The notes below the pieces were generated by a model, which saw nothing but the letters and a program-made list of their open reading frames with translations, was not told where the DNA came from and made no database searches. A program made the position numbers and the translations under genes. From an uncultured virus (IMG/VR IMGVR_UViG_3300017783_003463) (taxonomy: Duplodnaviria; Heunggongvirae; Uroviricota; Caudoviricetes), in IMG/VR virus record IMGVR_UViG_3300017783_003463, positions 1-64,000 of that record: DNA of 64,000 nucleotides, one strand, 5' to 3'. Below are positions 3,512-57,890 of this stretch, piece by piece (the first letter of the stretch is position 1; each line of letters begins with the position of its first letter).

Positions 3512-4353
3512 CTCAGTTTTTCCAATGCTTTGCGTACAGCCTTTCCAACTTTTTTATTACCTGCTTTATTAAAATGTCCAATAAAAGTATCTTTACCATC
3601 TCTGCTTATTTTAGGATCTATAGGAGCAAATATATGATACTTTTTATTGAGGAACATGTTCATACTACCTTTACCTACTCCCCAAGGATACGGAATATCT
3701 AAACATATACCGTGTTCAAATTGAGGTGTGACTTCTTCAGCTTCTTCTACCCATTTAAAATAATACAGTGGTGTTTCAGTTTCTCTGCATCTTTCATCTA
3801 TTAGTGTAGCACAACTTTGTATCACATGTTTATTGGTCATGCCATGAAACATCATTTTTCGCCATTCAATAGCTTCGTTTATGTTTCCTCCAAAGTCACC
3901 TTTGCCGTTAGCACTAATAAAATTAAAGTATCTAGCAGTGCCTTTACCTTGATATAAATCAACGTTTTCTGCTTGCACTTCATACTCATGCCAAAATCTA
4001 TCACCTATATGTCCTGGTTCATTCCATGTGAGTCTAGGTTCATATGTTAATTGTACTAATACATAATCGAAATCTTTGAGACGATTTTTATTGTAATAGT
4101 GTTCGAGTACTGTAGCATGTTGTACTATGCCTCCACCACTAACTGCATAAAGTGTGTGATAGTTTTTTGGATCTAAACTCTCAACCCAACCGCCATTTAC
4201 ATCAAGTGTTTCTCTGCCTAGTCCGTTGTCTACTTTCTTTGTAGTGCCGTCAGGTTGTAGCACATCACTATACATAATATAGTTTGGATCATATGTATAG
4301 CTTCCTGCACTAAAACTACAGCCAAACACCAATACATTTTCATTGTAGTCCAT
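3508..4353 (-). CDS. SGNH/GDSL hydrolase-like protein
   Basis: VFGCSFS near N-terminus, GHFNKAGN near C-terminus. Confidence 0.6.
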   Translation of the reverse strand: MDYNENVLVFGCSFSAGSYTYDPNYIMYSDVLQPDGTTKKVDNGLGRETLDVNGGWVESLDPKNYHTLYAVSGGGIVQHATVLEHYYNKNRLKDFDYVLVQLTYEPRLTWNEPGHIGDRFWHEYEVQAENVDLYQGKGTARYFNFISANGKGDFGGNINEAIEWRKMMFHGMTNKHVIQSCATLIDERCRETETPLYYFKWVEEAEEVTPQFEHGICLDIPYPWGVGKGSMNMFLNKKYHIFAPIDPKISRDGKDTFIGHFNKAGNKKVGKAVRKALEKLR

Positions 4354-4999
4354 CGCCTAAACCTTTTTTAATCATCTGTCCTAAAACAGTGTTTCCTTTT
4401 TGTGTAAAGTGTAAATCCGGATTGTGTAAATCTTTTTTGTAAAACAGTTGTTCAGTTGCAGGCTTTACATCTAAGTATTTAATATATTTATATGGGTACT
4501 TAACTCCAGTAAAACTGTAGCTGTATGTGGGCAATCCTGTTTGTTGGGCTAGACGATCCAAGTGACTTGCACATGCTTTAGTTAGTATATTCCAACTGTT
4601 TTCCATTTGCCAAAACCAATCACTCATTCCTTGTTGCCATTTGAAATTATATTGGTTAGCAATTTTGTTTTGCACTTTAGGTAATCCTCCTAGTCTATTA
4701 TGAAATGCATTATCTATTGTCCATGCAAAAACATTGAGTCTAGATGTATAATACTCAAGTTGTTTTTGTATTACAATTCTAGGTTCCCATGTCTCTTGTA
4801 TAATTATAGCACTATATTTTTTTATGTCAATTGATTCTAAACATGCACAGTAGCTCATAATGCCACCTCCTGGATGTGCATAAACTTGATATGGCCGATC
4901 AAGTTCATCATACCAGCAATAGTCTGTGTGTAGTGTTTCTGTTGTATTGTCGTAGCTGTACCAGCCCATACTAAAACTACAACCTAATATTAATATCAT
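4340..4999 (-). CDS. SGNH/GDSL hydrolase-like protein (paralogue of 3508-4353)
   Basis: ILGCSFS and DLHFTQKGN (DxH); shared TxEPR segment. Confidence 0.6.
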   Translation of the reverse strand: MILILGCSFSMGWYSYDNTTETLHTDYCWYDELDRPYQVYAHPGGGIMSYCACLESIDIKKYSAIIIQETWEPRIVIQKQLEYYTSRLNVFAWTIDNAFHNRLGGLPKVQNKIANQYNFKWQQGMSDWFWQMENSWNILTKACASHLDRLAQQTGLPTYSYSFTGVKYPYKYIKYLDVKPATEQLFYKKDLHNPDLHFTQKGNTVLGQMIKKGLGDGLQ

Positions 5000-50940: not shown

Positions 50941-51260
50941 AAGATCACAACGAAGACCAATACACAATACACATTGATAGCTTTAATAACAAAGGTCAAA
51001 AAGGTGACGATGATTTTGAAACATGGTTAGAGCACGAAGCACCTCTTGTTTCTACCTCTACTATTACAGCAATTGATAACTCATATTCAGTTGATTTATC
51101 ACAACAGGCTACATGCACAAGTACAATAATGTCATCAAATGTTGGAACTATAACTTTAACAGGAACAGGACATCATGCATTAAGAAAACAAAAAAAGTTG
51201 CCAATTGACTTACTATACAAATGGTATCCTGAACAAATGAAAGAACAAAATGAAGAATAA
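50937..51260 (+). CDS. Hypothetical protein
   Basis: 107 aa; C-terminal KKLPIDLLYKWY resembles KILPVDVFYKLF of preceding ORF. Confidence 0.55.
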   Translation: MKDHNEDQYTIHIDSFNNKGQKGDDDFETWLEHEAPLVSTSTITAIDNSYSVDLSQQATCTSTIMSSNVGTITLTGTGHHALRKQKKLPIDLLYKWYPEQMKEQNEE

Positions 51261-51942
51261 AATTTTTATGTTCGATGTTGACGGCACACTTACAGACCCA
51301 AGACGTACAATAGTACCAGAGTTTAAGGAGTTTATGTTTGACTTTGTTGCAAACAATACATGTATGATTGTAACAGGAAGTGATAGACCTAAGACTGTAG
51401 AACAAATTGGGGAAGATCTCACTAACAGTTTTGCAAGAGTATATCATTGCAGTGGCAACCATGTGTTTGTTAGCGGTGAGGAAGTATACAAAAGCGATTG
51501 GACATTAACAGAAGCTCAACAAACTTTTTTACAAACTATACTACCTAGTTTTGGTTATCCTGAAATGACTGGTAATCATATCGAACAGCGTACAGGAACC
51601 GCAAACTTTAGTATAGTAGGGCGTAATGCTGATTGGGATCAACGTGCTAGATATGCTGATTGGGAAAAGTCTAATCGAGGTAGAGATACAGTAGCAATGT
51701 ATTACAATCAAGAATTCGATGATAGCATTGCTCAAGTAGCTGGACAGACCAGCATAGATATTTTTAAGAAAGGCTGTGACAAGAGTCAAGCTATAAGAGA
51801 ACATGAAGGTACAACAATTTATTTTGGTGACCATTGTAACCCAGGCGGTAATGATTTTACAGCCGCACAAGCAAGCACAAGTTTTCATCAGATTGACCAA
51901 GGATATAAACAAACTTGGGAAATCTTAAAAAACATGTACTAA
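51250..51942 (+). CDS. HAD-IIB phosphomannomutase-like enzyme
   Basis: FDVDGTLT, VTGSD, IEQRTG..NFSIVGR, GQTSIDI, FGD...GGND. Confidence 0.82.
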   Translation: MKNKIFMFDVDGTLTDPRRTIVPEFKEFMFDFVANNTCMIVTGSDRPKTVEQIGEDLTNSFARVYHCSGNHVFVSGEEVYKSDWTLTEAQQTFLQTILPSFGYPEMTGNHIEQRTGTANFSIVGRNADWDQRARYADWEKSNRGRDTVAMYYNQEFDDSIAQVAGQTSIDIFKKGCDKSQAIREHEGTTIYFGDHCNPGGNDFTAAQASTSFHQIDQGYKQTWEILKNMY

Positions 51943-51947
51943 ACCGG

Positions 51948-51977
51948 TTGACAAAGGGTAGAAAAGATATATATAAT
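51948..51977 (+). promoter_or_regulatory. Sigma70-type promoter of GIY-YIG gene
   Basis: TTGACA-N18-TATAAT. Confidence 0.7.
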
Positions 51978-51995
51978 TGTTGCTAATAAACAAAT

Positions 51996-52424
51996 ATGCA
52001 ATGGACTTATCAAGGCAAAATAGTAGAAGAAATAAGTGAGGAATACATAGGGTTTGTATATCTTATTACTAATCTCACAAACGGCAAAAAGTATATTGGC
52101 AAAAAACTAGCAAAGTTTAAAGTAACTAAAAAACCACTCAAAGGCAAGAAAAATAAAAGACGTTCAACTAAAGAAAGTGACTGGAGAACTTATTGGGGAA
52201 GCAGTGACCATTTAAACGCAGATGTTGAACAATTAGGCCCAGAAAACTTCACAAGAGAAATACTGTACTACTGCACCAGCAGAGGCGAACTAAGTTACTT
52301 AGAAGCCAAAGAACAGTTTGACCGTGAAGTTCTTAAAACTGATGAATACTATAACGGCATTATAAACGTAAGAGTTGGCAGTTCCAAGGCACTTGTAGAA
52401 TCACTAAACAGACACCAGTCGTAA
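51996..52424 (+). CDS. Minimal GIY-YIG family nuclease
   Basis: GFVYLITNLTNGKKYIGKK, YWGSS, LSYLEAKEQ (catalytic Glu), YYN; Lys-rich insert. Confidence 0.85.
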   Translation: MQWTYQGKIVEEISEEYIGFVYLITNLTNGKKYIGKKLAKFKVTKKPLKGKKNKRRSTKESDWRTYWGSSDHLNADVEQLGPENFTREILYYCTSRGELSYLEAKEQFDREVLKTDEYYNGIINVRVGSSKALVESLNRHQS

Positions 52425-52712
52425 CATACCCTCTTTGTTAAAAGCATTGAGATTGTTCGCAGTAATGCGGGCCGTCGGAACTTGCTCGAGGGAAACAAAC
52501 CAAAAGAGTGGGCTCTACTGTGCCATTGTAACCCACGGATAGCTCAAAAGTCGGCGTTATGGCTTAGAGTGTTTCTGCGTTTTAAGCAGTATGTAAAGGG
52601 GTATAGCAAAACCGCCTCTGCCTAGCAATAGGTTATACTATAACGATGCGAACTGTAGACGGGGTAATGACCGTTTCTTTTTTTGCACTTGGCTGTAACA
52701 AGCTAAGTGCGA
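52425..52712 (+). ncRNA. Putative large structured non-coding RNA, family not recognised
   Basis: No ORF >=60 aa; about 45% GC by hand count; at least 8 stems, two GNRA loops, G-U pairs favour plus strand, two possible pseudoknots. Confidence 0.6.
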
Positions 52713-52814
52713 CTGAAAACAAGGTAATAACGTATCATATAAAATATGTTTAAAAAAATTATCATACGAAATGAAATGAGTATGACGATGAGCTTTAGCT
52801 CTTCGAAAGAATGT

Positions 52815-53078
52815 TTAAAATGTTCTACGATTAGTACCTTTTGCACTTTCTAAAGCTTCTTTCTGCTTTTCATTCTTGGTTTGCATAGCATCATTAATAT
52901 CACTAATCAATCGCATAGGATATTGTTCTAAGTTAGAATAGTTAAATGCTCCTTCTGAGTAAAGCACAATATTCAATAAAGCTAATCTGATTTCTTTAGA
53001 TGCATTTTCGTAGCGTTTTACGAGGTCATTTATCTCATCGCTGGTTTTCCTTCGACGGAGGGTGTTGTGAAAAAAAAA
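52815..53078 (-). CDS. -1 frameshift extension of gp26-like gene (gp51-like / tail chaperone GT-type), 84 aa
   Basis: Open from T9 run to TAA at 52817-52815: HNTLRRRKTSDEINDLVKRYEN...YSEGAFNYSNLEQYPMRL...RRTF; no ATG until codon 52. Confidence 0.7.
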   Translation of the reverse strand, partial: FFFHNTLRRRKTSDEINDLVKRYENASKEIRLALLNIVLYSEGAFNYSNLEQYPMRLISDINDAMQTKNEKQKEALESAKGTNRRTF

Positions 53079-53896
53079 CTTGGGTTAAACTCTACTAGTG
53101 AACTAAAGCCTTTTTGGCAGTCCTCTATACCACATGTAAATTTAAATTCTTTAGGTATTCCATTTGAGTTTAATTTAAATTGTTGCCCGCTTAATATTTC
53201 GATAGTTCTGCGATTAGAGTTGCTTAACCAATCTATAATATGTTGATTTTCGCTAACTATTTGTCCGTCTGGCATTGTAACTTTAACAATAGCATCTGCT
53301 ACTAGTACTAGATTTGCCGCCGCAATTTGTTGTATGTTTTCGCTGTATCTACCTCTGAGGTCTTCGGTTATATCTTGTTTATCTGCTCTAATACCTTGTA
53401 GTATTCTTCCAGTTTCGCTGGTCACAATGTTATTTGCATTTACAGCTGAAAGTGTATTAGGTTTCATTTCAACTACAAGACCATCTACTTCTATTTCTAC
53501 TTGATCTGTTACTGATACAATTTGACCTAATACTTTTTGTAAATCGATATCAAACATTTGTGAATTTTCACAATGTGGACATGTGGCTTCTACTGGATAA
53601 GTTTTTTCATAACTGGTTGCCCTACTAGCAAGCATTACTACATCTACATCAGGTAAACTCATATCACTAGCATCTGTGATATCTGGGCAGATGCTTTCTA
53701 TTAATTCGAAGATTGATTGCCCGTTGTATAGTGCATCAGGAATGTTAAGTAACAATTCATCTCTAACATTCATTGCTCTTACACCTATTTCACCGTCTTG
53801 TGACAGTTTAGGTGGAGATTTCATCCATCTGCCTTTAGTAGGAAGTTTAACGTAGATATCTTTGGTTCTATAATACCCCTGAAGTGGATTTTCCAT
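53030..53896 (-). CDS. gp26: Baseplate hub assembly / tail chaperone protein, T4 gp26-like
   Basis: NPLQGYYR..IYVKLPT, AMNVRDEL, CPHC, C-terminal FNPSFFF. Confidence 0.7.
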   Translation of the reverse strand: MENPLQGYYRTKDIYVKLPTKGRWMKSPPKLSQDGEIGVRAMNVRDELLLNIPDALYNGQSIFELIESICPDITDASDMSLPDVDVVMLASRATSYEKTYPVEATCPHCENSQMFDIDLQKVLGQIVSVTDQVEIEVDGLVVEMKPNTLSAVNANNIVTSETGRILQGIRADKQDITEDLRGRYSENIQQIAAANLVLVADAIVKVTMPDGQIVSENQHIIDWLSNSNRRTIEILSGQQFKLNSNGIPKEFKFTCGIEDCQKGFSSLVEFNPSFFFTTPSVEGKPAMR

Positions 53897-57549: not shown

Positions 57550-57745
57550 TACAGACATTTTAAATGAATATTATGATGCAGAAAATGACAATTATAACAA
57601 TAGAAAAGCAGATGATGTGCGTAAGCAAAGACTTACTTTAAAGCATATAAATCGTCTTAGAAAGCAAAGAGAAGTACATAATATTGAACATGCTACTAGA
57701 GTTGAAAAGATCAAACAGATCTACGCAAAACCACCTGCACAATAA
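57542..57745 (+). CDS. Small prohead-associated hypothetical protein (start likely 57542, MRSTDILNE)
   Basis: GGAG RBS before ATG at 57542; RLTLKHINRLRK; follows portal. Confidence 0.65.
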   Translation: MRSTDILNEYYDAENDNYNNRKADDVRKQRLTLKHINRLRKQREVHNIEHATRVEKIKQIYAKPPAQ

Positions 57746-57785
57746 GTTTTACAACTAAGATTTACTTATCTCAGAGAGATATTCA

Positions 57786-57813
57786 TAAAATACCCATTTT
57801 TTAGGGTATTTTA
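57786..57813. terminator. Inverted repeat, possible terminator
   Basis: TAAAATACCC-N8-GGGTATTTTA perfect 10-bp stem in intergenic gap. Confidence 0.55.
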
Positions 57814-57890
57814 GCAGTGAAACGTCTTGGTTTTGTAAATATAGATGTAAACCATCTTGGTAAGCCTGTAAATTTTTTAAGGAGAATGAT

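What the first reader, a model, noticed from the sequence alone, without database searches (positions are those of the whole stretch)
51948..52712. Minimal GIY-YIG nuclease followed immediately by a ~290-nt structured RNA: candidate RNA-associated nuclease system
Seen: a sigma70 promoter (51948-51977) precedes a 142-aa GIY-YIG protein. The largest non-coding gap in the window starts at its stop codon and is GC-enriched and densely paired, with no obvious terminator or separate promoter between them. The protein is just the catalytic domain plus a Lys/Arg-rich insert (KKLAKFKVTKKPLKGKKNKRRSTK). Known: I-TevI/Seg-type GIY-YIG homing nucleases use extra C-terminal DNA-binding domains for specificity, and these are absent here; IscB and TnpB use an adjacent structured RNA (omegaRNA/HEARO) as guide. 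Inference: protein and RNA may form a ribonucleoprotein, possibly RNA-guided, or the RNA may be a ribozyme or replication RNA acting with the nuclease. I do not recognise a described system of this kind, and I did not identify a guide segment.
Basis: partly seen in the sequence, partly recalled or inferred. Interest (0 to 1): 0.88.

Follow-up and report, generated by a model that had tools for sequence, protein, structure and literature searches.

The report
Candidate RNA-primed origin in jumbo phages
The folded RNA behind this small phage nuclease gene is real and shared by a whole group of giant phages, including ones that grow on E. coli, but it does not belong to this nuclease and most likely hooks onto its own DNA to start genome copying.

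Summary
The promoter, the 142-aa GIY-YIG gene and the structured RNA (about 52426-52730) are real: 17 of 53 pairs change on both sides, two pseudoknots included. An RNA-guided nuclease is not supported. Complete genomes carry the RNA without this protein and the protein without the RNA. The gene slot beside the RNA holds GIY-YIG, a RusA-like resolvase (25 of 25 loci) or endonuclease VII (cultured BF, 121Q, XaC1, GAP32), so the GIY-YIG is probably a substitute branch-DNA resolvase. A 6-7-nt direct repeat around the last hairpin varies freely yet stays identical between its copies (at least 16 of 16-17 changes on shared branches) and has no partner inside the RNA. An 84% A+T stretch and DNA-type hairpins follow. 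Best reading (about 0.5, inferred): a ColE1/T4-like RNA-primed origin in which RNA copy 1 pairs with the template strand at copy 2. The scan noted this RNA before on other DNA (e1-5735907); that note does not list the repeat, the nuclease swap or the cultured carriers. One variant's 5' domain matches Rfam Polynucleobacter-1.

The parts
51948..51977 (+). sigma70-type promoter, inferred to drive nuclease gene and RNA as one transcript
   Evidence: 12/12 match; a similar motif precedes 33 of 49 family-A genes but 1 of 99 B1 genes
51996..52424 (+). stand-alone SegE-like GIY-YIG nuclease (PHROG 447, labelled 'NAD synthetase' there); probable branched-DNA resolvase substitute
   Evidence: model pLDDT 87.6, best fold match I-TevI catalytic domain Z 8.0, rmsd 2.8, 82 aligned; slot shared with RusA-like resolvase and endonuclease VII
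52426..52730 (+). structured RNA core (family A): 5' domain closed by 52429-52433/52488-52492, hairpin 52508-52536, double-pseudoknot core, repeat module
   Evidence: covariation with G-U and not A-C on the + strand in the well-supported helices; 17 of 53 pairs with two-sided change, 0 of 500 shuffles as high
52555..52645 (+). pseudoknot 1 (52555-52560 with 52640-52645)
   Evidence: 100% of cells paired, 2 of 6 pairs change on both sides
52579..52612 (+). pseudoknot 2 (52579-52582 with 52609-52612); a GTTG/CAAC-type contact also seen in families B2, C and the cultured phages
   Evidence: 100% of cells paired, 2 of 4 pairs change on both sides
52663..52668 (+). [quoted passage not shown]
   Evidence: copies covary in homologues
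52683..52712 (+). last RNA hairpin, between the two repeat copies
   Evidence: 12 pairs, 100% of cells paired, 5 vary on one side by G-U
52723..52728 (+). direct repeat copy 2 (GGTAAT), 60 nt after copy 1; proposed DNA site whose template strand is bound by RNA copy 1
   Evidence: sequence; the pairing itself is inference
52728..52777 (.). A+T-rich stretch, candidate DNA unwinding element
   Evidence: 84% A+T, reached by 0.16% of the genome's 50-nt windows; 70-84% in all four marine families
52762..52807 (+). two conserved tail hairpins with tandem GA mismatches and short GNA-type loops, probably single-stranded-DNA structures
   Evidence: stem 52762-52767/52780-52785 paired in 270 of 270 cells with 5 extra pair types; z about -3 as DNA on either strand and as RNA; GNA-triloop enrichment in tails

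Best explanation
The element is an RNA-primed (R-loop) replication origin of RaK2-like jumbo phages. Host RNA polymerase transcribes it, here from the promoter before the nuclease gene. The transcript folds into a double-pseudoknot scaffold that displays a 6-7-nt segment (copy 1). When the polymerase has passed copy 2, about 60 nt further on, copy 1 pairs with the DNA template strand there and tethers the RNA, so that a persistent hybrid forms over the A+T-rich stretch. The freed DNA strands fold into the tail hairpins, where helicase or primase load, and the processed RNA end primes DNA synthesis. The GIY-YIG is not the RNA's partner but one of three interchangeable nucleases in this slot, most likely a junction or branch resolvase. 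Shown: structure, repeat covariation, A+T stretch, hairpins, independence from GIY-YIG, slot swap. Inferred: RNA-DNA pairing, R-loop, priming, hairpin role, resolvase activity.
For: Repeat: B1 copies identical in 80 of 81 distinct elements over 8 variants, at least 16 of 16-17 changes on shared branches; family C at least 11 of 13-15. Own-pair match of 7 nt or more in 0.99/0.86/0.74 of B1/B2/C elements against 0.50/0.24/0.25 for cross pairs. A G-U-tolerant partner inside the RNA in 64 of 162, 74 expected. 7-nt repeat in 6 of 6 parsed cultured phages, three variants. A+T stretch. GNA-triloop hairpins 117 in 19.8 kb of tails against 11 in 39.3 kb of control; in B they lie on the minus strand at +22 and the plus strand at +97. 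One copy in each of G000-G003. The element lies 5.5 kb from a large divergent switch of gene strand in G000 and within one 10-kb bin of it in G001-G003; T4 oriE/F/G lie at such switches and consist of promoter plus A+T-rich unwinding element with an R-loop (PMC3016281, passages). RNase H gene directly after the equivalent gap in Phosso. 46% along the CBB record, whose terminal repeat is annotated.
Against: No experiment or read data shows an R-loop or initiation. Fourfold-site skews show no switch at the element. PF00075 RNase H was not found in G011, G006, G001 or PA5oct and only weakly in Phosso. The four records with the strand switch are related and count as about one observation; CBB's element is about 14 kb off the midpoint. 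In family A, the window's own, the repeat hardly varies (0.74 own against 0.63 cross) and its first base differs between copies in 15 of 46. Among cultured phages cross pairs also reach 7 nt in 13 of 30. Sequence profiles link the cultured elements to the marine ones only weakly (best E 0.003), so that homology rests on position and layout. Repeats that covary could also be twin protein-binding sites. phiM12 has the GIY-YIG and a weak endonuclease VII hit, so the nucleases are not shown to exclude each other everywhere.
Confidence: 0.5

Rival explanations
1. The two repeat copies are twin binding sites for a phage protein (on DNA or RNA), and the element is another cis site: an iteron-type origin, a packaging or concatemer-resolution site, or a recombination hot spot served by whichever resolvase lies beside it.
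For: A nuclease gene is adjacent in nearly all loci: GIY-YIG in 86 of 89 A loci, the other 3 cut short, in 97 of 120 B1 loci with none lacking it where 1 kb of flank exists, a resolvase in 9 of the 10 GIY-free C loci read. It sits next to gp46/47. Contigs end in the first 300 nt after the gene in 36 of 144 loci against 0-4 per 300 nt upstream, and RNA cores are swapped between backgrounds (L006).
Against: The repeat sequence has no common consensus across families and differs between nearly identical C elements, which would need a protein that keeps changing specificity; copy spacing ranges from about 55 to 87 nt; the adjacent GIY-YIG does not follow the repeat.
Confidence: 0.22
2. A trans-acting RNA (ribozyme or scaffold) whose repeats mark two sites of RNA processing, joining or circularisation; the tail is a separate DNA feature.
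For: Large, multi-domain, pseudoknotted fold with variable 5' domains, one of which matches the orphan motif RF01718. Contigs of RNA libraries from four studies cover the core, two with no mismatch. A T-run lies between the copies in 30 of 39 A and 21 of 43 C elements, so shorter RNAs may be released.
Against: No internal guide complementary to the repeat. Core, repeat, A+T stretch and tail stay in one order in every family examined, also after inversion. The PA5oct RNA-seq paper lists four ncRNAs, none at the equivalent gap (PMC7318152, Table 1 passage).
Confidence: 0.15
3. One reading: the GIY-YIG binds the RNA and forms an RNA-guided or RNA-activated nuclease, with copy 1 as a short guide to the element's own DNA.
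For: One transcript in the window; tight adjacency in A and B1 and, RNA first, in 64 of 85 C loci; a basic beta-hairpin at residues 40-60.
Against: RNA without GIY-YIG in complete genomes; GIY-YIG without room for or trace of the RNA in Melnitz (80% identical), P-SSM2 and phiM12; unrelated folds fill the slot, on the opposite strand in BF, 121Q, XaC1, PA5oct and Phosso; RNA type is scattered on the protein tree.
Confidence: 0.07

Closest known systems
ColE1 RNA II preprimer origin
   Same: Host-polymerase transcript of several hundred nt that must fold and then forms a persistent hybrid that primes synthesis; helicase loads on the displaced strand (PMC5043065, passages). Pairing of an upstream RNA segment with the template strand near the origin is recalled from Masukata and Tomizawa 1990; searches gave no passage for it.
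   Different: No sequence match; here the tether would be a freely varying 6-7-mer, not a G-run; double pseudoknot; no antisense RNA I seen; a 350-kb phage; function not shown.
T4 oriF/oriG R-loop origins
   Same: [quoted passage not shown]
   Different: T4's minimal origins are about 100 bp and R-loop formation there does not depend on specific sequence; no large folded RNA or repeat is described in the passages read.
SegE-like GIY-YIG, PHROG 447 / PF19835 (T4-GC 213)
   Same: The protein is a plain member.
   Different: In this clade it fills the slot of endonuclease VII or a RusA-like resolvase, which suggests a housekeeping role and not homing.
Ssn family (SsnA), single-domain GIY-YIG that cuts single-stranded DNA at hairpins
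   Same: Minimal GIY-YIG next to DNA hairpins (PMC11893778, passages).
   Different: SsnA is 94 aa, family cd10448, with repeats in many copies; here the hairpins are single-copy and stay when the nuclease is replaced.
OMEGA nucleases (IscB/HEARO, TnpB)
   Same: Nuclease gene beside a structured RNA (recalled).
   Different: No obligate link, no free guide, no transposon context seen.
Rfam RF01718 Polynucleobacter-1 RNA
   Same: Full-length match (71.8 bits, gathering 37) to the 5' domain of the element in L345, directly after the GIY-YIG stop.
   Different: 1 of 17 loci scanned; no match in the window; the motif is 141 nt, from 16 sequences, and does not cover core, repeat or tail (PMC2864571, table and supplement passages).

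Membership tests
GIY-YIG superfamily, SegE-like (PF19835) | profile match above the curated cut-off and GIY-YIG fold | tested here: met
   124 bits against cut-off 25; I-TevI catalytic domain Z 8.0
GIY-YIG superfamily, SegE-like (PF19835) | complete catalytic set (Tyr, Arg, Glu, Asn; recalled from I-TevI) | tested here: inconclusive
   Y22, Y33, G35, E103, E106, N120 invariant in 24 of 24; the arginine's equivalent could not be placed, sequence searches of the PDB gave no GIY-YIG alignment
GIY-YIG homing endonucleases | C-terminal DNA-binding modules | tested here: not met
   142 aa, one domain
RNA-guided OMEGA-type nuclease | obligate linkage of RNA and cognate nuclease | tested here: not met
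   RNA without it; it without RNA
RNA-guided OMEGA-type nuclease | variable unpaired guide at an RNA end | tested here: inconclusive
   variable parts are paired hairpins or the A+T tail; RNA ends are not mapped
RNA-guided OMEGA-type nuclease | protein-RNA complex with guide-dependent cleavage | not testable with these tools
   needs pull-down and cleavage assays
R-loop primed origin (ColE1, T4 oriF/G) | promoter upstream and A+T-rich unwinding element downstream | tested here: met
R-loop primed origin (ColE1, T4 oriF/G) | folded preprimer with a segment able to pair with the template strand | tested here: inconclusive
   fold shown; covarying direct repeat fits but does not prove pairing
R-loop primed origin (ColE1, T4 oriF/G) | compositional switch at the site | tested here: inconclusive
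   gene-strand switch nearby, no switch in fourfold-site skew
R-loop primed origin (ColE1, T4 oriF/G) | persistent hybrid and autonomous replication | not testable with these tools
   needs plasmid assay, hybrid mapping, nascent-DNA sequencing
Holliday junction resolvase (functional class) | replaces a known resolvase gene | tested here: met
   same slot as PHROG 244 and PHROG 423 genes; complete G011 has only PHROG 244-type, 121Q endonuclease VII and no GIY-YIG, Melnitz only the GIY-YIG; phiM12 is a possible exception
Holliday junction resolvase (functional class) | symmetric cleavage of four-way junctions | not testable with these tools
   biochemistry needed
Ssn nucleases | multi-copy cognate hairpin repeats tied to the gene | tested here: not met
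   one element per record in 4 of 4; hairpins remain beside other nucleases
Rfam RF01718 Polynucleobacter-1 | score above gathering | tested here: not met
   window has no match; met only for L345

The most novel reading that the evidence does not exclude
A family of large pseudoknotted RNAs that aim themselves at their own locus through a reprogrammable 6-7-nt RNA-DNA pairing serves as the replication origin of RaK2-like jumbo phages, a protein-free 'self-guided' R-loop initiator whose core plus both repeat copies is exchanged between phages as a module, while three unrelated nucleases, one a GIY-YIG not known as a resolvase, process the resulting branched DNA.
Probability: 0.4. Interest if true: 0.88.

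Novelty: new variant of a known kind. Interest (0 to 1): 0.76.

Why it matters
It names a testable origin candidate for a group of 290-470-kb phages for which my searches found no origin described, and several carriers grow on E. coli. If copy 1 pairs with DNA, the element is a natural RNA that makes an R-loop at a site set by a short exchangeable sequence, which bears on the open question of what governs R-loop formation at phage origins (posed in PMC3016281). It also gives a likely function to PHROG 447, a T4-like gene with relatives in 812 phage records that is often labelled 'NAD synthetase'. It removes the locus from the list of RNA-guided nuclease candidates.

Tried and rejected
Rfam: no match in the window at gathering or in 51900-53100 at E up to 10 apart from a chance snoRNA hit, none in five cultured loci. 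blastn of the window's and a B1 element against cultured phages: nothing; the cultured carriers were reached through gp55 and synteny. K-turn or C/D-box reading of the repeat: dropped, the sequence is not kept across families. Internal RNA partner for the repeat: not found. Repeat read by the GIY-YIG: rejected by L006. Target-site duplication: unlikely, since the copies keep changing together on many branches. Fourfold-site skew: uninformative. RNA runs: 13 RNA runs hold part of the stretch, best share 0.37; four were laid, all contigs, so strand, ends and level are not shown; two contigs start at 52411, which may be a graph branch; lack of cover over flanking genes is no finding. The cross-family model R1 is weak: it finds G011 (E 0.001) but misses the B1 element of G001, so its blanks in Melnitz, P-SSM2 and phiM12 are soft. 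The PF02945 search missed its positive control 121Q and was replaced by PHROG 423. My recollection that RF01718 lies by a homologue of PSSM4_181 and that this is the GIY-YIG gene was wrong on the second point: the GIY-YIG gene is PSSM4_172.1. Four loci first counted as lacking the RNA have it upstream; 10 remain without it in the DNA fetched. Munch's element was not parsed by my anchor. Homology of the PA5oct and Phosso gaps to the family is by position and motifs seen by eye; profiles did not hit them. PMC10690425 mined IMG/VR for structured RNAs: its main text has no GIY-YIG passage, but supplements 1, 2 and 4 were not searched and mmc1-3 could not be read, so parts of this RNA may be among its unnamed candidates. 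No complex prediction was run.

Full report
1. Setting. The window is the first 64 kb of a 77-kb viral record estimated 21% complete. The locus reads gp55-gp47-gp46-small genes-GIY-YIG-gap, then a convergent small gene and gp26, then portal. Its gp55 has its best cultured matches in Phosso, PA5oct and the 121Q/GAP32/BF group (88 records, 42-48% in the rows shown), the RaK2-like jumbo phages.

2. Observation. Promoter, gene and gap are as described, with the corrections given under the observation check. The protein is PF19835/PHROG 447 and folds like the I-TevI catalytic domain with a basic beta-hairpin insert. Such stand-alone proteins are common in T4-like phages and lie inside operons in P-SSM2 and phiM12, with 0 and 28 nt before the next gene.

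3. The RNA is real. Of 73 downstream regions of close homologues, 58 link by blastn. They fall into families A (the window's), B1 and B2. In 45 distinct A sequences the helices covary and tolerate G-U rather than A-C on the + strand. On 32 A sequences a 53-pair structure with two pseudoknots is paired in 98.3% of cells; 17 pairs change on both sides against 8.3 in shuffles (0 of 500) and at most 3 in slid controls. The structure was derived from these sequences and the shuffle ignores kinship, so this is support and not a probability. Contigs from RNA libraries of four studies cover the core, but contigs show neither strand nor ends.

4. Linkage, then independence. Searched from the RNA side, 86 of 89 A loci and 97 of 120 B1 loci have the GIY-YIG upstream; all others are cut short. 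That is synteny within a clade. A further family C lies upstream of the gene with its own start: 64 of 85 loci have the GIY-YIG after it, 16 lack it in full flanks, 5 are cut short. In 9 of the 10 GIY-free loci read, the next gene is a PDDEXK_15 / RusA-like resolvase. All 25 loci of that resolvase, several of them redundant, have the RNA beside it: 19 before it and 6 after it in the window's own gene order. G006 (92% complete) and G011 (complete, terminal repeats) have RNA and resolvase and no PF19835. Cultured BF, 121Q, XaC1, GAP32 and UE-S1 have endonuclease VII in the slot, followed by a gap of about 800 nt; 62 records share BF's gap sequence. PA5oct and Phosso have the RusA-like gene and a 1-1.5-kb gap, Phosso with an RNase H gene after it. 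121Q, BF, PA5oct and Phosso lack PF19835. Melnitz has an 80% identical GIY-YIG, no adjacent RNA, and neither of the other two nucleases. L006 has the window's protein but a B1 core with its own repeat pair in front of an A-type tail. I infer non-orthologous displacement, with the GIY-YIG acting as resolvase (about 0.6); phiM12's weak endonuclease VII hit is a possible counter-example.

5. The repeat. Every family has a 6-7-nt direct repeat on both sides of the last hairpin. In B loci the 7-mers are identical in 94 of 97 (one mis-parsed, two differ at the last base). With the first copy removed from the tree input, B1 shows 16 changes in copy 1 and 17 in copy 2, at least 16 on the same branches (81 of 81 elements); C shows 15 and 13, at least 11 shared (41 of 43; two positions fixed by my anchor). 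Own pairs match better than cross pairs in B1, B2 and C but hardly in A, where the repeat barely varies. No complementary partner is enriched inside the RNA (64 of 162 against 74). Six of seven cultured elements parsed, each with a 7-nt repeat, in three variants; cross pairs reach 7 in 13 of 30. A sequence that is free to change but must equal a second copy, with no partner on its own strand, is what pairing between RNA and the complementary DNA strand would give. Twin sites for a protein would give it too, but the sequence differs among near-identical elements and does not follow the GIY-YIG.

6. The tail. Copy 2 is followed by an A+T-rich stretch (84% here) and by hairpins with tandem GA mismatches and GNA loops, about 20-fold enriched over control DNA in 131 elements and polarised by strand in family B. 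In family A the strict rule finds few, the tandem-GA form prevailing. That such motifs are stable in DNA rather than RNA is recalled, and the folding program does not tell the two apart. 121Q carries the same tandem-GA hairpin type as the window.

7. Mechanism. Promoter, folded transcript, a tether to the template, an unwinding element and hairpins on the freed strands match the layout of ColE1 and T4 R-loop origins (PMC5043065 and PMC3016281, passages). The element is single in four records, lies near a large divergent strand switch and at 46% of the CBB record. Skew gave nothing and RNase H is not a regular neighbour. No step of initiation is shown. I put the origin at 0.5, another protein-read cis site at 0.22, a trans RNA at 0.15, the RNA-guided nuclease at 0.07.

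8. Novelty. Rfam has no match for the window; the 5' domain of one variant, L345, matches RF01718, an orphan motif of 2010. Literature searches (listings, plus passages of PMC11893778, PMC7318152, PMC10690425) found no description of the element, the repeat or the slot swap; the library lacks most subscription journals, and unread supplements of PMC10690425 may hold pieces of it. I score it a new variant of a known kind, interest 0.76.

Noticed in passing
L006:3445-3740 (after the GIY-YIG stop); also L020, L197, L210 and, with other families, L044, L080, L178, L184, L208: Small ORFs of 76-95 aa inserted between nuclease and RNA; one type has His and Cys-x-x-Cys motifs and travels with a B1 core into an A background.
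   Followed up: partly
window 52425-53000 and homologues: Metagenomic contigs end in the element about ten times more often than upstream of the gene (36 of 144 in the first 300 nt); mosaic exchange or shared sequence between strains may break assemblies.
   Followed up: partly
L345:547-687: Rfam Polynucleobacter-1 RNA forms the 5' domain of one element variant, so that orphan motif may be part of this family; L494 has a similar-looking 5' part below threshold.
   Followed up: partly
L503:3987-5000 (Phosso): Unannotated 1-kb gap between resolvase and RNase H with an exact 11-nt complement about 400 nt apart (about 4442-4452 with 4044-4054), seen by eye.
   Followed up: no
L501:3480-4990 (PA5oct): A 12/12 sigma70 site at about 4860 (minus strand) opens a 1.3-kb stretch annotated as tiny hypothetical ORFs, ending in A+T-rich DNA with tandem-GA hairpins on both strands.
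   Followed up: partly
window 51250-51942: Phage gene of the eukaryote-type phosphomannomutase family (PF03332, E 6e-21) directly before the promoter in family-A phages.
   Followed up: no
window 57550-57890; G000 75562-75801 and 76371-76826: Further non-coding gaps of 341, 240 and 456 nt; the first holds an 89-aa overlapping ORF candidate.
   Followed up: no
L034, L048, L056 downstream of the GIY-YIG gene: A second conserved, structured-looking non-coding stretch about 270-450 nt after the stop, probably read on the minus strand; no Rfam match (for L034, L048).
   Followed up: no
L423:1772-2980; L511:1-758 (Munch): The slot beside the RNA holds yet other genes: a 402-aa ORF in L423 and a zinc-ribbon-repeat nuclease-like ORF in Munch.
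   Followed up: no
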